Shown here in pieces: positions 24,701 through 37,475 of a stretch of 64,000 nucleotides of DNA. Below the pieces are notes generated by a model. That model had not been told where the DNA came from. It was given only the letters and a program-made list of their open reading frames with translations, and did not search any database. This DNA is from Candidatus Eiseniibacteriota bacterium (GTDB lineage: Bacteria > Eisenbacteria > RBG-16-71-46 > JABDJR01): the NCBI GenBank assembly GCA_963762255.1, contig CAVXKA010000001.1:576001-640000 (forward strand), given 5' to 3'. How positions within the stretch are numbered: the first letter of the stretch is position 1; every line of letters begins with the position of its first letter. The position numbers were made by a program, and so were the translations under genes.

Positions 24701-26749
<2,049 letters not shown>

Positions 26750-26875
26750 GTTTCGAGTGGGCACAATCGTCACCCGTGGGCTGTCGTAGCTTCCACGTCA
26801 GTCCGGGCGGGTCTATATGTGTTTGAAATCAATGGGTTTCGGGGGCCGGGACGTTCAAACCCGCCTGCGCGAGCG

Positions 26876-27622
26876 TCAATCCCAGAGTTGCTTCAGTCTT
26901 CCCCATGTCGTGCCTTCCACCGGCGTCGCGCGTTGCACGGAAGCACGTCCGTCATTTGTATCGAAGGCGATGACCACTCGATCGTCGGCCTGCGTATTCT
27001 CGAAGCTGAAGTTGTCCCCGATAAGCATGTTGTAGTGCGGGCCGAAGGACCAGTCCCAGCTCCCGACGGATCGGAACTTGTACTCGACCGTACCGACGTC
27101 GGCAAGATTCATTTGAGCGCTCCAGACGCCGTCTTGCATCGTGGCCACGATCGGCAACGTCCAGGAACCAAGCTCGGGCGCACTTCCCATGAGCTCCAGG
27201 CTCGTCCCGACCGGTAATCCATGGTCGGTCATGATCGCCCCGGATTCCGGCTGCCAACCAGAACGGGGGTTTGCATCGAGCCGAAAGAAGACGGCCTCCC
27301 CGGCAGATACCGTGACAAGCCGGGCGTTCTGAAGCACGTATTCGGGATTGTGTGGCCACAACTGCGACCAGTCCGCGTTAGCGATCTTGAATTCATGGAG
27401 TCCAGGCGGCTGATCCGAGGTGATCGTCGCCGCATAAATGCCGTCTCCCCCTACTCCATCCCCATGCACGCCGTCATCATAGAGCCGGTTACCTGCGTCA
27501 TAGCCCCAGGTCGCGCCGGACCCCGCGTAATAGGAACCGCGCGCATAGTAAGGTTGAGCGACTGCCGACTGGGCCATGAGGCAACACACCGCCAAGAACA
27601 CCACGACCCCGATCCGTGTCAT
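26876..27622 (-). CDS. secreted protein with carbohydrate-binding-like Ig domains and TWG tail
   Basis: Signal peptide; LYDDGVHGDGVGGDGIY (choice-of-anchor X-like); YKFR; C-terminal PVEGTTWGRLKQLWD. Confidence 0.7.
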   Translation of the reverse strand: MTRIGVVVFLAVCCLMAQSAVAQPYYARGSYYAGSGATWGYDAGNRLYDDGVHGDGVGGDGIYAATITSDQPPGLHEFKIANADWSQLWPHNPEYVLQNARLVTVSAGEAVFFRLDANPRSGWQPESGAIMTDHGLPVGTSLELMGSAPELGSWTLPIVATMQDGVWSAQMNLADVGTVEYKFRSVGSWDWSFGPHYNMLIGDNFSFENTQADDRVVIAFDTNDGRASVQRATPVEGTTWGRLKQLWD

Positions 27623-27970: not shown

Positions 27971-28624
27971 CTACTTGCCGAACTGCTGCTTCACCACGCC
28001 CCATGTACTCTTCATCACGGGGACGATGCCTTCTCCGCTTAAGGTCACCACTCCGAATTCAGTCGGCTTCAACGCGACGCTGCCACTTGAGGGTTTTTCG
28101 GCACTGTTAAACGTCGCAAGGGTAAGTCGAAACGCATTGCCATCCGATGTGAATTCATGGATGCGAAAGTCAAATTCGCAGCCGAGTTCCGGAAACCGCA
28201 CCCCGTAATAGTAGTCGGGCGATTCATAGCAGCTGTACGAGGATGGGATGGGCCACCGGCCACTGGAGTAGCCGATCGACTCTATGCGCAGTATGTCCCT
28301 GCGCGTCTCAGGCTCAATGTCCATAATGCGGATGCTGGCGGAATCCAACGTGACCAAGGAGAAGCGAACGTTCAGAAATGAAACAACAAAAGGCAATCCA
28401 GGTTGGCAGCTTGGGTGCTGGACGCGGGTGTTGAATTCCAGGGACACGGGTCCCTGGTAGTAGATCCCCCTCGCCTTGTCGTCAAGACAGCTGGGCGCCG
28501 CGTAGAAGTCAATGGACGCAAACGCTTGACCAGAGAAGGTCGCGCCCCTGAGCTCAACCGCAGCGTCGGCCGTCCGCGGGATGGTGAATGTGGCAAGGCA
28601 GAGTACAAGCAGCAGTCTCAGCAT
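27971..28624 (-). CDS. secreted hypothetical protein with TWG tail
   Basis: Signal peptide MLRLLLVLCLA..ADA; C-terminal VPVMKSTWGVVKQQFGK. Confidence 0.7.
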   Translation of the reverse strand: MLRLLLVLCLATFTIPRTADAAVELRGATFSGQAFASIDFYAAPSCLDDKARGIYYQGPVSLEFNTRVQHPSCQPGLPFVVSFLNVRFSLVTLDSASIRIMDIEPETRRDILRIESIGYSSGRWPIPSSYSCYESPDYYYGVRFPELGCEFDFRIHEFTSDGNAFRLTLATFNSAEKPSSGSVALKPTEFGVVTLSGEGIVPVMKSTWGVVKQQFGK

Positions 28625-28766
28625 TGGCCGCCTCCGAGGAGGCATGGGGTGAAGACATCTTAGCACCGGGCGCAAGCCGCTCGGCTGCGTGTGCGCGTTC
28701 AATGGCGGCGGACAATTTTTCACGGCGGACCTACAGCGCTACACGCAGAGCCTGACTCTCGAACTG

Positions 28767-29035
28767 GTCACGGCACCGTGATCGCGTCCCTGCCGTAGGC
28801 CCCGGCGGCAGGGCGAGGTGAGTTTCGAGCGAGCACAATCGTCACCCGTGGGCTGTCATAGCTTCCACGGCAGTCCGGGTGCCCGTATATCTCTTTGAAA
28901 TCAATGGGTTTCGGGGATCGCGTCTTCCGAAATAATCGTCCCCAGGCTGCGATAGTGCCCACTCGAAGGGTGGTTTTCGAATGGATAGGAATTATGCGTT
29001 GCCCCCCCTGGATCAGGCCCGGAGGGGACGGCGAC
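28767..29035 (+). repeat. non-coding att-like repeat, copy B (full length)
   Basis: Contains an inverted pair (TTCGAGCGAGCACAATCG / CGATAGTGCCCACTCGAA) and an IHF-like site AATCAATGGGTTT. Confidence 0.9.
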
Positions 29036-29078
29036 GGGGGATTGCCGAACCAGTACAATCCGGCGTATACGCTTAGCC

Positions 29079-30650
29079 TCAGATTCGATGGGGGCTGATT
29101 TCCATCCCAGATACCAAACGGAAACTCTCGAGGGCGTATTCGTCCGTCATCCCACTTATGAAATCAATGATCATTCGAAGGCGATGTACCCTTTCCATGA
29201 CCTCAGCCATTCCCTCGTCCCTGCCCGCGTCCTTAGCCGAAAGCCGCACGGCTGCGTCGTATACCGCCAAGTACTTTCTGGAGACGCGACTGAGAAGACT
29301 AGTCTCCAGGGCGATCGGAGCGCCCATCGAATCCTTGTCCTCTTTGGCGCGGATACTCCCGAATCGAGATGCGTCACACTGCATGATTGGCTGATACGCA
29401 GACAACAATCCGCTGAGAACAGCGTATGCGGTAATCTCCCTCCGTCGAACAATCTCCGCAGAGTACAAGTGCTGCTCTGCAAACCGCTTCAATTCACTCA
29501 GCAGCTTCCCCGCATCCCCGTCTCTAAGTATCGGCCCTGCCTCGCCACTAAGGACCGCTGCCTGCTTCACCACAAACACCAAACCTGCTTGATGTGCTAG
29601 AAACCGAATGACAGCAGAGCGAAACTCCTCCATTGGTCTGAGTCTCTCTCCACCTGGCGCCGCGCCAGAATGGGGATCCTTCAGAGACTGCAAGGCAGAA
29701 GCGATGCGCTTCGCTTCATTTCCGATCTCCTCACCAGCCTCACCGAAGTTCATTCCCCCCGCGACGCCCTCAATGAACTGGGCGAACGCTGCCTTTGTGA
29801 CGATGCCCTTCTCTATGCCATCCTCGATGTCGCTTACACAGTAAGCGATGTCATCCGCCGCCTCCATGAGATAGGCGAGTGGATGTCTGCATCCGTTCTT
29901 AAGTCCAAGCTCTTTCCATATTTGGCGTGCTACATCCTGTTCCGTCTGAAAATATCCCGACTTCTTCCTCCCGCATCCGCCTCCACTGCTATCCCCAATC
30001 TCCGAAGTAGACCATGGGTATTTCAGAGTAGAAGCAAGCGTCGTTATGGTCAAGTTCAGGCCGAAGCGATCACTCGTCTCCGCCGCCTGCAGCCTCGTAA
30101 TGATTCTGAACCCCTGGGGGTTTCCATCGAAGTTCTCAAAATCAGCCTGAAACACATTCCATCGTCTCAGGGCCGGCCCACCGAGGCCATCCGGCGCTAG
30201 ATTGCAAATGCTCTGATGAAACCAATCGTTGATCGCACGCTCACCAAAGTGCCCGAAGGGGGGGTTACCGAAATCGTGAAGCAAGCAGGCAGTTGAGACG
30301 AATGTAATGAAGGCTCGCTCATTCCCGGCAATGCCCAGCTCCTTCTTTTGCCGCCCTGAAAAATGCTTCAACGCTTGTTGAGCAACGAACTGCCCAATTG
30401 AAGACACCTCCAAGGAATGGGTGAGCCTTGATCTGACTGCCGCATTTGTCTCTAGCGAGAAGACCTGAGCCTTGTTCTGAAGCCGCCGAAATGGCGATGA
30501 GAAGAGAACGCGGCCACGATCGGCGTCGGCGTTCTCGTCGAGTGTCCGCTTCACGACTTCGGGCCTTCGAAGGCGAGTGCCCTGGAGTAACCGCTCATAG
30601 GGTCGAGGTGTTGAGGCCGCGGTAGCTTTCCTTGCCCCCTTCCTATTCAC
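29079..30650 (-). CDS. dgt: dNTP triphosphohydrolase (dGTPase, HD domain)
   Basis: RRLQNKAQVF, SRLTHSLEV, LLHDFGNPPFGHFGE, EAADDIAYC and DFISGMTD motifs. Confidence 0.92.
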   Translation of the reverse strand: MNRKGARKATAASTPRPYERLLQGTRLRRPEVVKRTLDENADADRGRVLFSSPFRRLQNKAQVFSLETNAAVRSRLTHSLEVSSIGQFVAQQALKHFSGRQKKELGIAGNERAFITFVSTACLLHDFGNPPFGHFGERAINDWFHQSICNLAPDGLGGPALRRWNVFQADFENFDGNPQGFRIITRLQAAETSDRFGLNLTITTLASTLKYPWSTSEIGDSSGGGCGRKKSGYFQTEQDVARQIWKELGLKNGCRHPLAYLMEAADDIAYCVSDIEDGIEKGIVTKAAFAQFIEGVAGGMNFGEAGEEIGNEAKRIASALQSLKDPHSGAAPGGERLRPMEEFRSAVIRFLAHQAGLVFVVKQAAVLSGEAGPILRDGDAGKLLSELKRFAEQHLYSAEIVRRREITAYAVLSGLLSAYQPIMQCDASRFGSIRAKEDKDSMGAPIALETSLLSRVSRKYLAVYDAAVRLSAKDAGRDEGMAEVMERVHRLRMIIDFISGMTDEYALESFRLVSGMEISPHRI

Positions 30651-31522
30651 GCCACATTCCTGTCATCGCGAGAGGGGATCGTGCGTACACGGGATTCTCT
30701 GCGTGAATCGAGAAGAAGATCCAATCTGTTCAGGAGCTCCTCCCGTCCCTGCGGAAATCTCGCGTGAAGAAAGTCCCATTCTACCTGAAGCAGTCCTGGC
30801 ACGACATTCTCTCGCAGCCGACAACAATCGGCATCGGGGACGACCAGCTGTGGAGTGTCTTCTAGAATCCGGACGAGACGTACTGCCAGGACGGCCAACT
30901 CGACGGGTGGCATCTCGTTCCATCGGGGCCAGTTGATTCCGGGGTCACGTTGTTCGCGTCTTTGCAGTACACCAAACGGATCGAGGACACACCCGGTCCC
31001 CAAATGAACCGCGAGCGCATTGATTCGTAGGTCAAAGTAACGAAGTGCTCCCGAAACCGATCGAAATCCCTTGTGGAACGTGGAGGGCTCAGAAATGTCT
31101 ATGTAGCCATCTTCGTAATGATAGCAACGTTGCTGGTGTCGGTTCAGTTCGAATGGCAAACCAAGAGCATCCAGAGCTTTGAATGCCCGGACATCTCCGT
31201 TCGGTACCATGACATCTATGTCGCCAGAATCTCCGAGTTGAAACAATGCTCTGCGGTGGGTACCGCCGACCACATAGGCACGTCCATTTGTAGCGTGAGT
31301 GATGGCGCGAATGACCTCGCGGGTCCTGTGACGCTCTTGTAGCCGCCTCATGAGTTCGCGATACAAGACCGCATGCGGTTCGTCAGGCTGACGCGCATTG
31401 CGCGTTGGCCGCGTGATCGTCCCAACCATTCCTGTGGGCGTCAATCGCAACCAAGAGGGCGGCCGCCACGCACGGACGCCGAGCAGATCACCGGCCGATA
31501 GAGCCATCGAGTGTTTCTTCAT
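30647..31522 (-). CDS. CCA-adding / poly(A)-polymerase-like (class II) nucleotidyltransferase head domain protein
   Basis: YVVGG...GDIDV (DxD), RYFDLRINALA (compare RRDFTINAL) and LDPFG motifs; GTGA overlap with the dGTPase gene. Confidence 0.7.
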   Translation of the reverse strand: MKKHSMALSAGDLLGVRAWRPPSWLRLTPTGMVGTITRPTRNARQPDEPHAVLYRELMRRLQERHRTREVIRAITHATNGRAYVVGGTHRRALFQLGDSGDIDVMVPNGDVRAFKALDALGLPFELNRHQQRCYHYEDGYIDISEPSTFHKGFRSVSGALRYFDLRINALAVHLGTGCVLDPFGVLQRREQRDPGINWPRWNEMPPVELAVLAVRLVRILEDTPQLVVPDADCCRLRENVVPGLLQVEWDFLHARFPQGREELLNRLDLLLDSRRESRVRTIPSRDDRNVA

Positions 31523-31951
31523 GCCAGCAACACCATTAGTGGTCTTGTCATTTTAAGACGGCTTGTCACTCATGAGTATACCCCACACAGGCTACCGAGA
31601 TGTACTAGCGCAGGGCAATGTAATTCGGACCAGCCCGAGTGAGCGGACCGTAGACGGACCGGTCGCTGTCACTGGGTGGCCATTACCGCACGCTACCCTT
31701 TGATTGTAGCGGTCCGACACTTGCTTCTCGATTCCTACTTGGCTGTGCTGCTCTGTACTTGGCGCCAGGAATCTGGTCCTCCGGCGCCATTACCATTGAA
31801 ACGTGCCGGGTCATCCGGAGATCTCCGCGATGACTTCCCCGGCGGTCCATGTGGAAGTTCACCGCCGTAGGCTTGGCTCCCAGCTTCGGGGGTCGGCTCC
31901 CCTTGAACCCGTGCCGCCCCGGCTCCCCAATGGGGTCTGGAGGTTCAAGTT

Positions 31952-32203
31952 ATGCCCTACCTATCGTCCCCGACCCTGACGAAAGCCGAACAGGAAGCCC
32001 TACTCCGCGTGTCATCGGGACACCCCCGCGATCACTTGATCTTTTCGCTCGCCCTCGGCACCGGGCTTCGCCTCGCGGAGATCGTCGGCCTCAACGTGGG
32101 CGACGTGTTCACCGCTGACGGCAAGCCGCGCGGTCGCATCAGAGTCAGGCGCGAGATCGCCAAGGGCGGCCGCGCCGGCGACGTGTTCCTGCCGGACGCG
32201 CTG
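31952..32203 (+). pseudogene. small tyrosine recombinase, N-terminal fragment (copy 1)
   Basis: LALGTGLRLAEIVGLNVGDV..IAKGGRAGDVFLPDAL, then unrelated sequence. Confidence 0.85.
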
Positions 32204-32307
32204 AGGCTACGAGGATGCCTGACGCGGATTAGATCACGCCCGGAGGGGCCGGCGTCTGGGGACCACCGAACTTGTACAAGCCAGAGAATCACCATGGCCG
32301 CAAAGTT

Positions 32308-33219
32308 CTATTCGAGGCCAATCTCCAACTGCTGGTCGCCACCGCTTCTTGCCCGGAAGAGTCCCAATACTCGCTGAGCGTCGGGTTCAGCGACAATGAC
32401 GGTCACGACCTTCTTGGGGTCATTGAACATCATGCGCGATTCACCAAAGTAGCGCTGCTCCTCATGATCGATCTTGAGGTTCATCTTCCCGACCGAGCGT
32501 CCCTTACTCTCCCAGGCAACCTGTGGTGCCCCTCGATCGCTTGGGCGCCCAGGCAATGCCGCCGGTCGCAGATCCCCTAAGCGCAGCCCGATGTTAGATA
32601 CAGCACGACACGGCCAGAGCTCTCCTTCGTCTGCGTCGCCAGCCCGCCATTCCCAGACCACAACTGCGCCATGCCAAATGTCAATTTCGAACACCCTCGC
32701 CGCAGCAGCCCAAAAGGAGACCCCGTATAGTCTGGCAAGGTAGTTCAGGTGCCCCCAAGATAGGCCGCCTTCGAGCAACCTACTCCGCCAAGCATCGCGG
32801 GGCATCAAGAGCGCAGCCGCAAAGGTATCGCAGAGTCTCTCAACCGAGGTACGTTCGGCCTCACTCTCTAGCAGCCCGTGCTCCATGGCAACAGCGAGCT
32901 TTGTAGTTCTTGCTATCTCCAAGTGCCCGATCTCGTGCGCTATGGAGAAACGCCTCCGTGCCGGGCTTGCAGACGAATTGACCACTGCGACATAACCACC
33001 CGCGGATACATTCAGGAGGGCATCGACGTGCAACACTCGGTACTCGACAATCAGTCCTCGTGTCTTCGCGAATGCCTCAACGTCGAGTGCTCTTGTCGAG
33101 TCCCAACCACTCCTAATCGCTTCCGCTAATCTCTCTACGGCCTCTCGCGCATCCACAACACCCATTTCTCTCGCGAGGTTTACGGCGACCCCTGATTGCC
33201 ACACAACGCGTCGCGCCAC
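32308..33219 (-). CDS. ImmA/IrrE family (CapP-like) zinc metallopeptidase
   Basis: RRRFSIAHEIGH and ERLCDTFAAALLMP motifs; HTH-like middle and an extended C-terminal domain. Confidence 0.9.
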   Translation of the reverse strand: MARRVVWQSGVAVNLAREMGVVDAREAVERLAEAIRSGWDSTRALDVEAFAKTRGLIVEYRVLHVDALLNVSAGGYVAVVNSSASPARRRFSIAHEIGHLEIARTTKLAVAMEHGLLESEAERTSVERLCDTFAAALLMPRDAWRSRLLEGGLSWGHLNYLARLYGVSFWAAAARVFEIDIWHGAVVVWEWRAGDADEGELWPCRAVSNIGLRLGDLRPAALPGRPSDRGAPQVAWESKGRSVGKMNLKIDHEEQRYFGESRMMFNDPKKVVTVIVAEPDAQRVLGLFRARSGGDQQLEIGLE

Positions 33220-33222
33220 GAC

Positions 33223-35029
33223 CTAGATCTCACTATCAAACAGGGACCCATCCGACGTCCCGCTCCCCAGTTGATCCTGACTAACCCAGTCAATGTAGAG
33301 CTTCTTCCAGGACTCCTCTGACAGAGGAGATGCCGAGTCCCCGCGCGCAGCCGACGCATCAAACGCGGCCCGCAAGTCCTCCCAACCCCGCTTCTTCAAA
33401 TCAGCATAGGCACGATAGGGCAGTTCCTTCCTTCTCGCGAACGCCCTCAAGTGCCTCAGGCTCTCGCGATATGTATTCTCAAAGCGCTGGTCCTTTCCGG
33501 ATTGGTCCCTCAGCAACTCAGCTGGTGCCACGCCCAAACCCTTCGCAACCCGCCGTAGCTGCACCGTTGAAATCGTGGCCAATTGCTCAGGCCGCGTTTC
33601 CACGTTCGCAAGCGAAGCTGCGTCCAAGCCTGAACCGAGGGCCAGCTGCTCCAAGCTCATTTCTTGCTCCTCACGCAGGGATCGAATACGACTTCCAAGC
33701 CTCAAGCTGTACTCGCGCTCTCGCGATCTTCGGGTCAAGTGGAACTTCATACGGTTCTCCTTGAAGAAGGCGTCAAGGTGACACGACAGCTCTTCAAAGG
33801 TGTTGAACTGTATCTCGCCCAAGATCCTCGTCGGCACTCCCCGCAACATGCGGGAGATTGTGACGTGTTCTGAATGCAGAATGACCAAAGGTACGCCTGC
33901 GTTTGCAGCAATCTCTGCCTCAATGCCAACTCCATGACTGGGGTCATCCGCGAAGATGCAGACGAGATCGGAACTTGCAACCCGCTCCCGGTCGATCCAG
34001 TAGACCTCAGTCGGTGTCAAGGATCGAGCTCCGACCGGATGCGTATGCTCACCAGGAACGTAGAGGGCGAAGTCCGCGCCTTCGCATGCTCCTCTAACGA
34101 TTTCCGTCACCTCGACAGCTCGCGTTTCCTGTTCCGGCGTGGACTGCGTCAGAGGACACGCAAAGTACGCCCGGAATGGTACGACGGTTGGAATGGCAGC
34201 CCCTAGCAGATCAAGGCAAGCCAGAGCCGATGCCGGTCGGTCAAGGGAGTTCTTGGACAGCAGAGATTTCGTCATATCCAGGGCAGCAGTCCAAACCGGC
34301 CCCTTCATGCGCAGCTTATCATCAAAGGTGATGGAATGCGCGATCTTCGCGGCATTGATTTGCTCCGAGTCTGTCGCGGCAGCGAATATCTCGGTACCAT
34401 GCAGCAGATAGTAGAGCGTCGCCCCGAAGGAATAGAGATCGGCAGGATATCCATAATGGTCGTGCTCGATGTACTCCGGGGCAGCGTATCGCCTCGTGCC
34501 CACAAACTTGTTGCCAGATTGAGTGACACCCAGGTCTCTAGCGAGCGGATCACCCCGAAATCGAGCAGCCGCAGCCGGCCGGTTGAGTCAATGTGAATGT
34601 TTCTCGGTTTTATATCCCGGTGAAGACGTCCGGTAGAATGCAGGAACTCAATTGCATCGAGTATTTGGGAACAGAACTGGAGGAGGAATTCTTCTGTTGG
34701 CTCGTGGGCTAATCGCCAAGTATGTAGATTGTCACCATCGAGCCATTCCATCACGAGGAACGGCTTGTCGCTCACATCGAGATGATGCACGCGCACGAGA
34801 TTGGGGTGTGACAAGCGAGACCCTGTTTCGAACTCCTCTTCTTGAACCTACTCCACTGAGCTGGTTCAGCAAGAATGGTGTCATTATATATCTTGAGAGC
34901 TAGAAGGCCCCCCGTCTTGGCGAATTGCAGTTCCCGTTTGGCGGCGACCTTCCATACTGCTCCGGCGCCCCCCTCGTCGATCTTGTCCAAGAGATTGAAA
35001 TCAGATAAGGAGATCGCAATCGCTGTCAT
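33223..35029 (-). CDS. Ser/Thr kinase - nucleoside 2-deoxyribosyltransferase(NDT)-like - XRE HTH fusion (frameshifts near 34830 and 34515)
   Basis: Kinase motifs EGGAGAVW, LALKIY, HRDIKPRN, DFG, GTRRYAAPE and DLYSFG; NDT motifs YFACPL and DRERVASSD..PSHGVGIE; HTH LGSRIRSLREEQEMSLEQLA..LRRVAKGLGVAPAELL. Confidence 0.8.
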
Positions 35030-35271
35030 TGAAGTCCGCCTCCTCCGGGTTTGACTTGTGGCCGCGCTGCGGTTCTGGTCAACCGGCTCGAGTCTGCCTC
35101 GTCCCCCCTGTCCTCCCGAAAACCCCATCCAACGATTTCACTCGCCAATTCCCTGTTGATTCTACACCCGGACGCTTTGCGGGGTCAGGCCGGCCGATCG
35201 CTGAATGAGCGCACCCATGTTCCCCTTGACTCCCTCGCCTCTCAGCTCCCCAATGTCCTCGGAGGTGACCC

Positions 35272-35507
35272 ATGCCGCATCTCTCGCCCGCGACCCTGAC
35301 TCGCTCAGAATAGCAGGCCCTGCTTGAGGTTTCGGCCTCGCATCCTCGGAACCACTTGATCTTCTCACTAGCCACGGGAACCGGACTGAGATTGTCGGAG
35401 ATCGTCGGCCTTAACGTGGGCGACGTGTTCACCAAGGACGGCACGCCTCGAAGCCGCATCCGCCTGCGGAGAGAGATCGCCAAGGGCGGCCGCGCCGGCG
35501 ACGTGTT
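35272..35507 (+). pseudogene. small tyrosine recombinase, N-terminal fragment (copy 2, early TAG)
   Basis: MPHLSPATLT..TGLRLSEIVGLNVGDV..AKGGRAGDV, then unrelated sequence; in-frame TAG at about 35311. Confidence 0.85.
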
Positions 35508-35556
35508 ACCCCACGGGCGCATACAGACCAAGTTGCGTAGCCTTCCGGTGCCCCTG

Positions 35557-36417
35557 TCAGCGTCCGCCCCCCTCGTGTTCCTCGAACCAAAGGAGGAATC
35601 TCCTACTCTCCTGCATCGACAGTTGGTTAATCCCTCCCAGCGCCGCAATGCGGCTATTGTAGTGCGGTACCAGAGCCTCCTCCACCTTCCGCACGCCCTT
35701 GCTCATCGCGACGAGGTCAGTACCGAAGGCTCGGATTGCGCTCAGTTTCGCTGCTGCCAAATTGTCCCCAATAAGGGTCTCGGGGAATCTCAGGACCGGG
35801 TCGAGCGCAACCAGGATGTGAGTCCTCAGCAAGTCTTCGGTCTTCCGATTCACACCTCTGTGTACGAACTGGTGGCGGGCATCGGAAAGCTCCGCGGTTG
35901 CCAGGGCTAGCTCACCAAGGGCGTCGCGGATAGCTCCGTCATTTGGACCGAGCCTTTGCTTCATTGACTTGTACGAGCACTGTCGCGGCTCCATGTCTAG
36001 CTGAAGGACTGCACTCGACGCAATGAGCGTCCTGTCCATGCAAGAATGGAGCATCACGGTGCCCGAGTTTAGGCAATCCTGAATGAACGAGACTTCCGTC
36101 CAGCCGACAGATTCAAGCCACTCACCTGGTGGTGGGGCATCCATCGCGCAGACCAGACGCGCGGCGTTCTGAAACACCTTGTGCAAGGGCTCGATCCCGT
36201 TGAAGACATCGAGAACATACTCACAGACTGGCGGAGTACGAAGTGGTTCGTCATCACTGCTCTCGATTCCCCAAGTGCGTAATGTGTGGGCCAATAGGTC
36301 AGGCCAGTTCGCCTGCATCATTGGGCTGTCGGGAAAGAGCCTCCGGGCGGTGACCCGAGCATTCGCGGCGATTCCATTCTCCATGTTCGGCCGGTTCACT
36401 TCTTCGTTCCCGCGCAT
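35557..36417 (-). CDS. HEPN domain protein (Cthe_2314-like)
   Basis: All-helical composition with an R-x4-H motif (ARHQFVHRG); RBS ggagg. Confidence 0.6.
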   Translation of the reverse strand: MRGNEEVNRPNMENGIAANARVTARRLFPDSPMMQANWPDLLAHTLRTWGIESSDDEPLRTPPVCEYVLDVFNGIEPLHKVFQNAARLVCAMDAPPPGEWLESVGWTEVSFIQDCLNSGTVMLHSCMDRTLIASSAVLQLDMEPRQCSYKSMKQRLGPNDGAIRDALGELALATAELSDARHQFVHRGVNRKTEDLLRTHILVALDPVLRFPETLIGDNLAAAKLSAIRAFGTDLVAMSKGVRKVEEALVPHYNSRIAALGGINQLSMQESRRFLLWFEEHEGGGR

Positions 36418-36637
36418 CCTCGATGATCCTCCCCAAGGGAAGCAGTTCAGCGCATGCCCATTGCGCCAAGAAGCGCCTAAGGACCAGCCGGGTTGGGACC
36501 CCGCCTCTATCCCGGATTCTCTCAGACTATGGTCTGTATGATCTTGCCCCAATACGGTCACCTGGTGAGAGCACACTGAAACTTGTGCTTGAACTCCATC
36601 GCCCTTGGCTCCCCAATGTGGTCGGGAGGTTGACGTT

Positions 36638-37226
36638 ATGCCGTACCTGTCGCCGCCGACGTTGACGAAAGCCGAGCAGGAAACCCTACTCCGCGTGTCG
36701 TCTGATCCACCCCCGCGACCACCTGATCTTCTCCCTCGCCCTCGGAACCGGTCTTCGCTTGTCGGAGATCGTCGGCCTCGAACGTGGGCGACGTGTTCAC
36801 CGCGGACGGCACGCCTCGAAGCCGAATCCGGCTCCGCCACGAGATCGCCAAGGGCGGCCGCGCCGGCGACGTGTTCCTGCCGGACGCGCTGGGGCCGAAG
36901 CTCGTGAGGTTCTGGGGGTACAAGGTGCGGTCGGGCGAGTCGCTTGACTGCCAGCCGCGCCGCTCTTCTGCAACCAGTCCGGCCACCGCATCTCCAAACG
37001 CCGCGTCCAGATGGCATTCAAGACCTGGCAGGAGCGCGCGGGGTTCGACCGGATCTACGGGTTTCATGCGTTGCGCCACAGCGGCCGTGACGAATGTGTA
37101 CCGGGCGTCCGCGACCTCTTCCTCGCCCAACGGTTCGCGAGGCACGCGTCGCCGCTGACGACCACCATCTACACGCACATCGGCGACGAAGAACTCATGC
37201 AGGGCGTTCGCACTTTGACCTGCTAG
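36638..37226 (+). CDS. small (about 195 aa, catalytic-domain-only) tyrosine recombinase, full copy 3 (several frameshifts)
   Basis: Catalytic set R (GLRLSE), K (AKGG), HxxR (FHALRH), H (FARH) and Y (TTIYTH) spread across frames. Confidence 0.85.
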
Positions 37227-37358: not shown

Positions 37359-37475
37359 GGCGACTGGCTCATGGCGCAGCGGTTCGCAAGGCGCGCGTCG
37401 CCGCTCACGACCACCATCTACACGAATCCCTCGGACGAGGAGCTGTTCGGCAGGGTGAGGGATCTGGTCTGCTGA
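37359..37475 (+). pseudogene. tyrosine recombinase, C-terminal fragment (copy 4)
   Basis: DWLMAQRFARRASPLTTTIYTNPSDEEL..RDLVC*, paralogous to the end of copy 3. Confidence 0.8.

What the first reader, a model, noticed from the sequence alone, without database searches (positions are those of the whole stretch)
29079..31522. Candidate new defence operon: CCA/poly(A)-polymerase-like nucleotidyltransferase coupled to a dGTPase
Seen: a two-gene operon with GTGA overlap and lower GC, lying between att-like copy B and int1. Gene 1 keeps the class II NTase catalytic head (GG..DxD, D.RINAL, DP.G) but lacks the EDxxR nucleotide-selecting motif and the tRNA-binding body. Gene 2 is an intact HD dGTPase. 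Known: stand-alone dGTPases defend by dNTP depletion, and other NTase families make signals or inhibitors for effectors (CBASS, Hailong). Inference: the NTase makes an oligonucleotide or modifies a target that gates the dGTPase, or repairs/poisons tRNA ends. I know of no described system with this pairing.
Basis: partly seen in the sequence, partly recalled or inferred. Interest (0 to 1): 0.8.

Follow-up and report, generated by a model that had tools for sequence, protein, structure and literature searches.

The report
Clover-like NTase–dGTPase defence gene pair
This is a rare two-gene cassette, a small nucleotidyltransferase coupled to a dGTP-destroying enzyme, that looks like a distant and differently wired relative of the recently described Clover anti-phage system, not an unknown kind of system.

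Summary
Two minus-strand genes, a 291-aa nucleotidyltransferase (NTase, 30647-31522) and a 523-aa dGTPase (29079-30650), overlap by GTGA in a low-GC island.

- **NTase:** it matches no Pfam, NCBIfam or PADLOC model. It belongs to a small conserved family, and its model matches class II CCA-adding enzymes and poly(A) polymerases.
- **Pairing:** a dGTPase lies directly downstream in 20 of 20 informative loci out of 23. One 767-aa fusion protein exists.
- **Rarity:** the pair was found in 0 of 40 relatives and 0 of 400 other sampled Acidobacteriota genomes.

The claim that this pairing is undescribed is out of date. Clover (CloA dGTPase plus CloB NTase, PMC12265719) is exactly this pairing. A plasmid Clover operon I recovered has a CloB with the same truncated class II fold.

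This pair is still not an orthologue. Gene order is inverted and the dGTPases form their own clade. CloA's specific p3diT and dTTP contact residues are replaced in 13 of 13 sequences. The NTase resembles CloB only remotely.

Most likely it is a Clover-like defence module that uses a different nucleotide signal, which makes it a new variant of a known kind.

The parts
30647..31522 (-). Minimal class II-type nucleotidyltransferase (291 aa). Residues 1-41 are disordered and not conserved. Catalytic D101, D103 and D142. Family-specific motifs are VPNGD, YFDLRINAL, DPF and DPGINWPRW.
   Evidence: ORF. No Pfam, NCBIfam or PADLOC hit. Family alignment A1. AF2 pLDDT 82.4. Foldseek top hits are class II CCA-/A-adding enzymes and poly(A) polymerase, E about 1e-6, probability 1.00. 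hhalign to the CloB family gives 94.7%, E 5.7e-8.
29079..30650 (-). Dgt-like HD-domain dGTP triphosphohydrolase (523 aa). Metal and catalytic residues H78, H125-D126, H134, E137 and D266 are kept. The N-terminal segment is Arg-rich and conserved (Y18, R26, R28, R35).
   Evidence: NF003429 410.5 bits (cut-off 405), PADLOC dGTPase 3.2e-69, Pfam HD and HD_assoc. Best PDB matches are 7w1f (1.5e-70) and E. coli Dgt 4x9e (8e-62); CloA 9p8t scores 1.6e-50. Clade and residue analysis.
30647..30650 (-). GTGA overlap of the NTase stop and the dGTPase start, implying translational coupling.
   Evidence: Read directly. In 20 other loci the two genes lie between a 20-nt overlap and a 27-nt gap. They overlap in 15 of 20 if the start codon nearest the homology is used.
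31523..31900 (-). Upstream non-coding spacer that should hold the operon's own promoter. One weak sigma-70-like match lies at 31731-31703.
   Evidence: 1 promoter-like site found, against 1.4 expected in shuffles. This is a consensus match only and not evidence of function. An oppositely oriented recombinase fragment (31902-32377) separates the spacer from the upstream capP-like gene.

Best explanation
The pair is a self-contained, horizontally acquired, Clover-like nucleotide-pool defence module.

**Proposed mechanism.**
- The dGTPase is the effector. When active it hydrolyses dGTP and starves phage DNA replication.
- The upstream, translationally coupled NTase is its regulator. It uses its intact Pol-beta active site to make a small nucleotide or short oligonucleotide without a template.
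- That product binds an allosteric site of the dGTPase oligomer and sets its activity threshold. By analogy with CloB and p3diT it most likely restrains the enzyme in uninfected cells, until an infection-linked change in the nucleotide pool overrides it.

**Why I expect a different signal.** This dGTPase clade has Dgt-like rather than CloA-like residues at the positions that read p3diT and dTTP. I therefore expect both the signal and the trigger to differ from Clover's.

**Shown here.** The folds, the intact active sites, the conserved operon, one fusion, the rarity, the island context and the remote likeness to CloB.

**Inferred.** The defence role, the existence of a diffusible product, and the sign of the regulation.
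For: 1. **Same kind of pairing as an experimentally defined system.** In Clover, CloA is a dGTPase that dTTP activates and that p3diT, made by the NTase CloB, inhibits. CloB active-site mutants are toxic (PMC12265719, sections 2, 4, 5 read).
2. **A genuine Clover operon was recovered for comparison.**
   - The plasmid locus L009 dGTPase matches SeCloA (PDB 9p8t) over its full length: 467 bits, E 5e-139.
   - It keeps R29, R34, D37, R38, F41, N75 and D61.
   - The gene 8 nt downstream encodes a 259-aa NTase.
3. **That CloB family and the window's NTase share a fold.**
   - CloB-family model: pLDDT 83. Window model: pLDDT 82.
   - Both give the same PDB hit list. 4wby ranks first in both, and each has 46 hits at E<=0.001, nearly all class II CCA-/A-adding enzymes or poly(A) polymerase.
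   - The order of secondary-structure elements is the same.
4. **Profile links between the two NTase families.**
   - hhalign of A1 against the CloB family: 94.7%, E 5.7e-8 over 113 columns, with DxD and the third acidic residue aligned.
   - The A1 HMM finds CloB at 8e-06.
   - The wider mini-NTase profile A6 finds CloB at 5e-11, in a small database.
5. **Both families lack the RR of motif B.** A1 reads [YF][FV]D in 17 of 17 and CloB reads TTFF. Motif B RRD is described as ribose-recognising in PMC2910056 (passages read). Its loss is compatible with dNTP use, as in CloB.
6. **The operon is conserved.**
   - A dGTPase at 53-72% identity lies directly downstream, on the same strand, in 20 of 23 loci.
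   - The other 3 contigs end too early to tell.
   - Spacing runs from a 20-nt overlap to a 27-nt gap.
   - One 767-aa NTase-dGTPase fusion, P0061, exists.
7. **The paired dGTPases form one clade** with 100/100 support.
8. **Accessory and rare.**
   - The NTase family is in 0 of 40 relatives of G000.
   - A close dGTPase is in 0 of 40 relatives.
   - The NTase is in 1 of 401 sampled genomes of the phylum of G041, and that one is the centre genome itself.
   - Flanking genes differ from locus to locus.
9. **Island context in the window.**
   - The GC dip.
   - Recombinase fragments.
   - A CapP-like peptidase, PADLOC capP 1.1e-28, and a kinase with PD-T4-6/mad6-like hits.
   - A weak HEPN hit.
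10. **The dGTPase is an extra one.** The five acidobacterial genomes with the pair also carry a separate short dGTPase-like gene.
Against: 1. **No function was measured.** Defence is inferred.
2. **The dGTPase is not a CloA orthologue.**
   - It scores higher to Dgt-type structures than to CloA.
   - The relation among its clade, Dgt and CloA is an unresolved three-way split.
3. **CloA-specific ligand contacts are replaced in 13 of 13 paired dGTPases.** These are R29, R34, D37 and N75 for p3diT, and D61, K256 and N420 for dTTP. E. coli Dgt likewise has none of CloA's residues at these seven positions; the paired clade matches Dgt exactly at D37->G, D61->A and K256->E, and nearly at N420 (K against R).
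4. **The NTase is no closer to CloB than to other class II NTases.** hhalign to a set of 416-449-aa class II-like proteins gives 99.4%, E 2.9e-21, against 94.7% for CloB. That comparison set was picked from A1's own hits. The pairing may be convergent rather than inherited.
5. **Gene order is inverted** relative to the one Clover operon I could inspect.
6. **Neighbours in the other loci are mostly housekeeping.** I scanned 20 flanking ORFs from nine other loci. 15 had Pfam hits, mostly housekeeping (GH57, LptF/G, YidC, GroEL, iron permease, peptidase S9). Only three were defence- or mobility-like: patatin, ResIII and an integrase fragment.
7. **The fusion rests on one sequence from one contig**. 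Given the overlapping stop and start, it could be a frameshift artefact.
8. **G000 has no other dGTPase-family gene at E<=0.001**, so a housekeeping role in this host cannot be excluded.
Confidence: 0.55

Rival explanations
1. The module is the same two-gene unit with the opposite sign of regulation. The NTase product, for example a short oligodeoxynucleotide, activates the Dgt-like enzyme. It would act through the kind of single-stranded-DNA effector site known for E. coli Dgt, either after infection switches the NTase on or after the product accumulates.
For: At the mapped CloA ligand positions the dGTPase lacks CloA's residues, as E. coli Dgt does, and it passes the Dgt equivalog cut-off. 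E. coli Dgt binds single-stranded DNA tightly, and this stimulates hydrolysis (PMC9478638, passage read). Signal-activated effectors are the commoner pattern in NTase-based defence such as CBASS (recalled).
Against: The three described systems in which a constitutive NTase partners a toxic effector use inhibitory signals: Clover, Hailong and Panoptes, as listed in PMC12265719 section 5. The NTase has no recognisable sensor domain. It is only a head and neck, plus a disordered N-terminus that is not conserved. An upstream, translationally coupled NTase suits a protector made no later than the effector, though this point is weak. The Dgt DNA-site residues were not mapped here.
Confidence: 0.15
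2. The pair is not a defence system. It is an accessory module for dNTP-pool homeostasis, in which the NTase product tunes a housekeeping-type dGTPase to growth state.
For: The pair's dGTPase is the only dGTPase-family gene found in G000. It reaches the NCBIfam equivalog score of housekeeping Dgt. Most neighbours in the other loci are housekeeping genes.
Against: The pair is extremely sporadic: 0 of 40 relatives, and 1 of 401 in a phylum sample. The contexts are not syntenic. In this window it sits in a low-GC island with recombinase remnants. The five acidobacterial carriers also have another dGTPase-like gene.
Confidence: 0.12
3. The NTase works on nucleic-acid 3' ends, tailing or repairing tRNA or other RNA in the manner of MenT- or AbiEii-type toxins. 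The dGTPase would then be an independent effector or an antitoxin-like partner.
For: The fold is that of class II tRNA nucleotidyltransferases.
Against: The body and tail domains that hold tRNA are missing. Motif B RRD is lost in 17 of 17 family members. There is no PADLOC hit to any known NTase toxin family. The strict coupling, and one fusion, to a dNTPase is better explained by a nucleotide ligand, as in Clover.
Confidence: 0.08
4. The NTase regulates the dGTPase by direct contact or covalent nucleotidylylation, with no diffusible signal.
For: One natural fusion places both domains in a single polypeptide. The two genes are translationally coupled.
Against: Nothing here supports it specifically. 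In Clover the regulator acts through a free ligand seen in cryo-EM (PMC12265719, section 4).
Confidence: 0.05

Closest known systems
Clover anti-phage system (CloA dGTPase + CloB nucleotidyltransferase; Yamaguchi et al., bioRxiv 2025, PMC12265719)
   Same: It is a two-gene operon of an HD dGTPase and a roughly 250-290-aa Pol-beta NTase with the [D/E]h[D/E]...h[D/E]h motif. The CloB family I recovered (A2) and this NTase share the truncated class II CCA/PAP-like fold and the same PDB hit list. Their profiles match at 94.7%. The dGTPase catalytic residues are identical.
   Different: - Gene order is NTase first here. It is dGTPase first in the plasmid Clover locus.
- The dGTPases form a separate clade.
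- The p3diT contacts R29, R34, D37 and N75, and the dTTP contacts D61, K256 and N420, are replaced in 13 of 13.
- The NTase is only remotely similar to CloB and is closer to other class II-like NTases.
- The carriers found are Acidobacteriota MAGs and soil metagenomes. The preprint lists proteobacteria, Bacillus, Clostridia and Myxococcia.
- I could not see its Supplementary Table 1, so I cannot exclude that members of this family are among its >650 systems.
Escherichia coli Dgt (housekeeping dGTPase; PDB 4x9e; NCBIfam NF003429)
   Same: The dGTPase aligns over its full length at E 8e-62. It passes the equivalog cut-off. At the positions where CloA reads its ligands it lacks CloA's residues, as Dgt does, and it matches Dgt exactly at three of them.
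   Different: Dgt stands alone between mtnN and degP and has no NTase partner. The paired clade is separate from Dgt in the tree and has its own conserved N-terminal segment, RPYDRLL..R.R.SRV.
Stand-alone anti-phage dGTPases (Tal et al. 2022; Shewanella dGTPase, PDB 9p8w; NCBIfam NF041026)
   Same: They are HD dGTPase effectors that defend by dGTP depletion, and the window's protein matches the PADLOC dGTPase model at 3.2e-69.
   Different: The relation is far more distant: NF041026 scores 176.8 bits against a cut-off of 400, and 9p8w scores 2.6e-27. They are single genes with no partner NTase (locus L037).
Class II tRNA nucleotidyltransferases / bacterial poly(A) polymerase (Pfam PF01743)
   Same: The head and neck fold matches (Foldseek E about 1e-6, probability 1.00). 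The GGxxR...DxD, third carboxylate, DxxxNA and DP motifs are present.
   Different: - There is no Pfam hit at E<=10 for this protein.
- There is no body or tail domain.
- Motif B RRD reads YFD.
- There is no literal EDxxR.
- It is encoded with a dGTPase rather than as a housekeeping gene.
Hailong (NTase making inhibitory oligodeoxyadenylate) and CBASS (CD-NTase signals)
   Same: The logic is the same: a Pol-beta NTase makes a nucleotide signal that controls a toxic effector (as summarised in PMC12265719, section 5).
   Different: The NTase lineage and the effector are both different. This NTase gives no PADLOC hit; that library dates from 2023 and may lack Hailong.

Membership tests
Clover (CloA/CloB) | Adjacent, co-oriented genes for an HD dNTPase and a Pol-beta NTase | tested here: met
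   for the window. 20 of 20 informative loci out of 23. The order is inverted relative to the Clover locus L009.
Clover (CloA/CloB) | CloA HD motif, metal ligands and HE catalytic dyad (H69, H117/D118, H126/E129, D242) | tested here: met
   All are kept in the window's protein. 13 of 13 paired dGTPases keep them, except that L016 has Y at the H126 position.
Clover (CloA/CloB) | dGTPase is orthologous to CloA (closest to SeCloA) | tested here: not met
   PDB ranking is 7w1f at 241.8 bits, Dgt 4x9e at 213, and CloA 9p8t at 175.8 over the N-terminal half only. The tree shows a separate 100/100 clade, and its relation to Dgt and CloA is unresolved.
Clover (CloA/CloB) | p3diT pocket residues (R29, R34, D37, R38, F41, N75, N181, Q311, R314) | tested here: not met
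   R29, R34, D37 and N75 are kept in 0 of 13, and Q311 in 4 of 13. R38, F41, N181 and R314 are kept, but R38, N181 and R314 are also kept in E. coli Dgt. The alignment of the N-terminal segment is uncertain. Invariant R26, R28 and R35 lie nearby.
Clover (CloA/CloB) | dTTP activator pocket (R47, D61, Q172, K256, S418, N420, T449, Y452) | tested here: not met
   D61->A, K256->E and N420->K in 13 of 13. R47, Q172, T449 and Y/F452 are kept, and R47, T449 and Y452 are also kept in Dgt.
Clover (CloA/CloB) | CloB active site [D/E]h[D/E]...h[D/E]h | tested here: met
   D101, D103 and D142 are acidic in 17 of 17. They align to CloB-family D62, D64 and D102.
Clover (CloA/CloB) | NTase belongs to the CloB sequence family | tested here: inconclusive
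   hhalign gives 94.7%, E 5.7e-8, and the fold and PDB hit list are the same. tblastn against plasmids, which include a CloB, found nothing at E<=1. A1 is also closer to other class II-like NTases, at 99.4%.
Clover (CloA/CloB) | Octameric clover-shaped CloA; phage defence; toxicity of NTase active-site mutants; p3diT product | not testable with these tools
   These need expression, phage assays, LC-MS and cryo-EM.
Class II tRNA nucleotidyltransferase / poly(A) polymerase (PF01743) | Head-domain fold with motif A (GGxVRD...DxD) | tested here: met
   Foldseek gives 46 PDB hits at E<=0.001, nearly all class II enzymes. The profile hits CCA-adding enzyme 6ibp at E 0.014.
Class II tRNA nucleotidyltransferase / poly(A) polymerase (PF01743) | Reaches Pfam's gathering score | tested here: not met
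   This protein has no PF01743 hit even at E<=10. 2 of its 16 homologues carry a precomputed PF01743 hit.
Class II tRNA nucleotidyltransferase / poly(A) polymerase (PF01743) | Motif B RRD (ribose recognition) and motif D EDxxR (base template) | tested here: not met
   Motif B reads [YF][FV]D in 17 of 17. A literal ED..R occurs in 2 of 17 and not in the window's protein. A DxxR is conserved at 232-235. Motif roles are taken from PMC2910056 (passages read).
Class II tRNA nucleotidyltransferase / poly(A) polymerase (PF01743) | Body and tail domains that bind tRNA or RNA | tested here: not met
   The protein is 291 aa, with 1-41 disordered, against PDB targets of 340-520 aa. The model ends after four neck helices.
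E. coli-type dGTPase (NCBIfam NF003429) | Score at or above the curated equivalog cut-off, full-length match | tested here: met
   410.5 bits against 405, with residues 32-516 matching profile positions 23-499 of 500. This is only just above the cut-off, and the tree puts the protein outside the E. coli/Arcobacter Dgt branch.
CBASS CD-NTase and other PADLOC defence NTases | Match to a PADLOC model | tested here: not met
   The NTase matches 0 families at E<=0.01.

The most novel reading that the evidence does not exclude
This is a second lineage of NTase-gated dGTPase immunity. It either diverged anciently from Clover or was assembled independently from a Dgt-like dGTPase and a different mini class II NTase. 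It would use a nucleotide signal other than p3diT and a trigger other than dTTP. One possibility is a short oligodeoxynucleotide acting at the single-stranded-DNA effector site that E. coli Dgt is known to have. If so, the long-puzzling DNA effector site of housekeeping Dgt would be linked to an immune signalling origin.
Probability: 0.35. Interest if true: 0.65.

Novelty: new variant of a known kind. Interest (0 to 1): 0.45.

Why it matters
Clover showed that a cell can hold a lethal dNTP-depleting enzyme in check with a home-made dinucleotide and release it when a phage distorts the dNTP pool. This acidobacterial-type pair shares Clover's general architecture, but it lacks the residues that read Clover's two ligands.

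It offers a natural test of how general NTase-gated dNTPase immunity is, and of how signal chemistry diversifies. It could yield a new nucleotide signal. It also bears on why E. coli Dgt has a nucleic-acid effector site.

Tried and rejected
- **Complex prediction** (dGTPase alignment A4 plus NTase 45-291): no verdict (score 0.00, mark 0.32, controls not run). I do not use it either way.
- **The look-up of sequencing runs** on 29000-31900: none was listed, and no RNA holder was listed.
- **Viral-contig scan with A1**: 74 pattern matches, none a relative.
- **tblastn of the NTase against plasmids**: no match at E<=1.
- **Klebsiella and E. coli plasmid dgt loci.**
  - The Klebsiella and E. coli loci (L006, L007) and the Arcobacter, Paracoccus and Rhizobium loci (L008, L034, L035) show no NTase of type A1, A2 or A6 in their flanks.
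  - The divergent 273-aa gene in L006 is unrelated (hhalign 0.3%).
- **Wider mini-NTase profile A6 on 401 genomes of the phylum of G041**: 161 of 401 matched. Apart from G041, the listed matches lie in frames of 330-1457 aa. I take these to be housekeeping class II enzymes. The profile is not specific and gave no further small paired forms. That sample includes three genomes flagged unpublished (G197, G069, G094). Only these tallies, and the negative tallies on a like sample of 401 genomes, could rest on them.
- **Two other long dGTPases in that sample** (G062, G373; 46-50% identity over the N-terminal half): no NTase within about 1.5 kb.
- **The listing of cluster members on 10 representatives**: no useful names.
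- **tRNA and Rfam scans of the island**: nothing found.
- **Promoter and terminator scan**: counts at shuffle level.
  - Nicastro et al. 2023 (PMC10681802) is not held.
  - Paper supplements are closed, so I could not check the CloB homologue list of PMC12265719.
- **Idea rejected:** that the capP-like peptidase and the kinase-HTH genes upstream belong to the system. They are absent from all 23 other loci, and a recombinase fragment separates them from the pair.


Full report
**1. The observation**

Two minus-strand ORFs occupy the stated interval: 30647..31522 (291 aa, ATG start) and 29079..30650 (523 aa, GTG start). Read on the minus strand, the junction is ...AAT GTG GCG TGA, with GTG AAT AGG starting the second gene. 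The stop and the start share GTGA. GC is 0.56-0.57 at 29-32 kb, against 0.67-0.69 at 21-26 kb and 0.66-0.69 at 38-44 kb.

Gene 2 is an intact dGTPase:
- Pfam HD and HD_assoc match.
- PADLOC dGTPase scores 3.2e-69.
- NCBIfam NF003429 scores 410.5 bits against a cut-off of 405, and TIGR01353 scores 304.5.

Gene 1 matches nothing in Pfam, NCBIfam or PADLOC, even at E<=10 in Pfam. It does have 16 homologues among 5.8 billion proteins, at 37-46% identity. The alignment shows these invariant or conserved features:
- G86-G87-x-x-R90.
- D101-x-D103.
- An acidic residue at 142 in 17 of 17.
- [YF][FV]DL[RK][IV][ND] in 17 of 17.
- D181-P182.
- A family-specific GINW.RW motif in 17 of 17.

**2. Fold of gene 1**

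An AlphaFold2 model built on that alignment has mean pLDDT 82.4, with only residues 1-41 disordered. Foldseek against the PDB gives 46 hits at E<=0.001. Nearly all are class II CCA-adding or A-adding enzymes and bacterial poly(A) polymerase: 4wby, 3h37, 1miv and 3aqm, with E about 1e-6, probability 1.00 and query TM 0.45-0.56. The family profile also touches CCA-adding enzymes by sequence, at 6ibp with E 0.014, aligning motif A and the DxxxNA/DP region.

The protein lacks the body and tail domains. Motif B RRD, described as ribose-recognising in PMC2910056 (passages read), reads YFD. No literal EDxxR is present. A conserved D232-x-x-R235 (D 17 of 17, R 15 of 17) may be its remnant.

**3. Is the pair conserved?**

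Yes.
- A genome-collection scan gave 5 loci, all Acidobacteriota MAGs. A metagenome scan gave 18 more.
- In 20 of these 23 loci a dGTPase at 53-72% identity follows the NTase directly on the same strand. The other three contigs (L018, L031, L033) end inside the NTase or within about 100 nt after it.
- The distance from the NTase stop to the nearest candidate dGTPase start runs from a 20-nt overlap to a 27-nt gap. The genes overlap in 15 of 20 loci.
- A HMMER search of 1.84 billion cluster representatives found 205 proteins at E<=1e-3, 85 at E<=1e-10 and 34 at E<=1e-30.
- One of these, P0061 (767 aa), is an NTase fused to a dGTPase of this clade. It is a single sequence on one 59-kb contig. With overlapping stop and start codons, a frameshift artefact cannot be excluded.

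**4. Distribution and context**

G000 (4.1 Mb, 93.6% complete) has one copy of each gene and no other dGTPase-family match at E<=0.001.

Among 40 relatives (same genus to same class):
- None has the NTase family. Two weak matches, at E 8e-5 and 3.7e-4, lie in 630- and 474-aa frames that I take to be housekeeping class II enzymes.
- None has a close dGTPase. Two matches at 39-42% identity fall in one other family.

In a sample of 401 genomes of the phylum of carrier G041:
- Only G041 itself has the NTase.
- Only G041 has a full-length close dGTPase. Two others have different long dGTPases with no NTase within about 1.5 kb.

The five acidobacterial carriers each also hold a short dGTPase-like gene elsewhere.

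I scanned 20 flanking ORFs from nine other loci. 15 had Pfam hits. Most were housekeeping and different at each locus: GH57, LptF/G, YidC, GroEL, FTR1, peptidase S9, cytochromes and MarR. Only three were defence- or mobility-like: patatin, ResIII and an integrase fragment.

In the window itself the surroundings look like a decayed island:
- Three tyrosine-recombinase fragments.
- A CapP-like peptidase (PADLOC capP, 1.1e-28).
- A kinase with PD-T4-6/mad6-like hits, fused to a CapH-like HTH and broken across reading frames.
- A weak HEPN hit.

None of these neighbours recurs in the 23 other loci, so the unit is the two genes alone.

**5. What is already known**

[quoted passage not shown] It reports the following:
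- Clover is a dNTPase-NTase operon found in more than 650 genomes.
- CloA is a dGTPase that dTTP activates.
- CloB makes p3diT, which binds CloA and suppresses it.
- CloB active-site mutants are toxic.
- HD mutants lose defence.

A 2026 review repeats this and cites a 2026 publication (PMC13434031, passages read). A search for "p3diT" found only these two relevant papers. The pairing is therefore described.

**6. Is this pair a Clover?**

No CloB structure or sequence was directly available to me, so I looked for a Clover operon in the plasmid collection. Locus L009 (a Phaeobacter plasmid) has a dGTPase that matches SeCloA (PDB 9p8t) over its full length, at 467 bits and E 5e-139. It keeps CloA's ligand-contact residues. 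A 259-aa gene follows it 8 nt downstream.

That protein's family (A2) has invariant D62-x-D64 and D102. This is consistent with the CloB catalytic residues given in the preprint as D71/D73, or D61/D63 in one legend. Its AF2 model (pLDDT 83.3) gives the same PDB hit list as the window's NTase. 4wby is first in both, and each has 46 hits at E<=0.001. CloB is thus also a truncated class II NTase, a point the preprint does not make (0 mentions of "CCA").

Evidence that links the two NTase families:
- hhalign of A1 against A2 gives 94.7% probability, E 5.7e-8, over 113 columns, with the three carboxylates aligned.
- The A1 HMM scores CloB at 8e-06.
- The broader mini-NTase HMM A6 scores CloB at 5e-11, in a small database.

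Evidence against orthology:
- A1 is closer (99.4%, E 2.9e-21) to a set of 416-449-aa class II-like proteins than to CloB. That set was picked from A1's own hits, which favours it.
- tblastn of the NTase against all plasmids finds nothing at E<=1.
- The dGTPase scores higher to Dgt-type structures (7w1f 1.5e-70, 4x9e 8e-62) than to CloA (1.6e-50, N-terminal half only).
- In a tree of 21 dGTPases the 13 NTase-paired ones form a 100/100 clade. Its relation to E. coli/Arcobacter Dgt and to CloA is an unresolved three-way split. Rows left out were the partial dGTPases of L001, L017, L022, L025, L027, L028, L029 and L032, the near-duplicate L024, and L014/L015.
- Gene order is inverted.

I mapped CloA's ligand contacts onto the alignment, taking numbering from the HMMER alignment:

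| Site | CloA residues | Kept in the 13 paired dGTPases |
|---|---|---|
| p3diT, specific | R29, R34, D37, N75 | 0 of 13 |
| p3diT | Q311 | 4 of 13 |
| dTTP, specific | D61, K256, N420 | 0 of 13 |
| General | R38, F41, R47, Q172, N181, R314, T449, Y/F452 | kept; six of them (R38, R47, N181, R314, T449, Y452) are also kept in E. coli Dgt |

At these seven positions E. coli Dgt also lacks CloA's residues, and the paired clade matches Dgt exactly at D37->G, D61->A and K256->E.

The N-terminal alignment is uncertain. The clade has its own invariant Arg-rich segment there (R26, R28, R35), so a phosphate-binding pocket may exist in a shifted form.

**7. Mechanism**

The best-supported reading is a Clover-like module. 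The dGTPase is the effector, and the NTase is a constitutive maker of a small nucleotide that sets the effector's threshold. The ligand, and probably the trigger, differ from p3diT and dTTP.

The loss of motif B's two arginines in both CloB and this family is compatible with deoxynucleotide substrates. This is an inference.

E. coli Dgt binds single-stranded DNA, which stimulates it (PMC9478638, passage read). The Dgt-like character of this clade therefore keeps open an oligonucleotide effector, and the opposite sign of regulation.

Nothing here measures function. The defence role rests on analogy, rarity, mobility and the island context of this one window. The mostly housekeeping neighbours in other loci count against it.

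**8. Verdict**

- The pair is a new variant of a known kind.
- Interest is moderate. The pair is a promising source of a new nucleotide signal and a useful comparison for Clover and Dgt, but it is not categorically new.

Paper supplements were closed, so the published CloB list could not be checked. Nicastro et al. 2023 was not held.

Noticed in passing
window 32308-35128 (-): A Ser/Thr kinase is split over three reading frames (ORFs 34772-35128, 34305-34814, 33223-34503). The 34305-34814 and 33223-34503 ORFs match consecutive parts of the Pkinase profile, and the first ORF gave no Pfam hit. The last piece continues into an unassigned domain of about 150 aa and an XRE/CapH-like HTH. A CapP-like M78 peptidase follows (PADLOC capP, 1.1e-28). 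It looks like a decayed CapH/CapP-regulated kinase defence gene. It is not linked to the NTase-dGTPase pair in any of the 23 other loci.
   Followed up: partly
window 31902-32207, 35272-35527, 36588-36895; 37111-37195 and 37360-37444: There are three copies (72-88% identical) of the N-terminal part of a tyrosine recombinase gene and two copies of its C-terminal end. The first two fragments give sub-threshold Phage_integrase hits, and one ORF from the third copy gave none. The pattern suggests repeated integration and decay at this spot.
   Followed up: partly
window 26695-26859 and 28767-28931: A direct repeat of about 150 nt, about 87% identical, brackets two paralogous secreted proteins (26876-27622, with a weak CBM_20 hit, and 27971-28723). 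It has no tRNA or Rfam match.
   Followed up: partly
window 35557-36420 (-): The C-terminal 287 aa of a long ORF gives a weak Cthe_2314-like HEPN hit (E 6.7e-4, below the cut-off). The upstream part of the ORF overlaps recombinase fragments on the other strand and may be spurious.
   Followed up: no
P0061 (767 aa; metagenomic protein): This single polypeptide joins an A1-type NTase (residues 5-243) to a dGTPase of the paired clade. It is one sequence on one 59-kb contig.
   Followed up: partly
L028:736-1722 and L016:1064-2650: The L028 dGTPase lacks the equivalent of residues about 130-307, so it is a decayed copy. The L016 dGTPase has Y in place of the catalytic-dyad histidine (CloA H126).
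   Followed up: no
L009:2899-5129 (Phaeobacter piscinae plasmid pP18_c): This is a clear Clover operon: a CloA orthologue (E 5e-139 to PDB 9p8t) plus a 259-aa NTase annotated as hypothetical. It sits beside a three-Cys-motif partner protein TcmP and a phage Gp37/Gp68 family protein.
   Followed up: partly
P0163-P0204 (alignment A5): These 12 proteins run from 397 to 449 aa, and several show two NTase-like stretches. They are the closest profile relatives of the window's NTase family (hhalign 99.4%). Their function and gene context are unknown.
   Followed up: no
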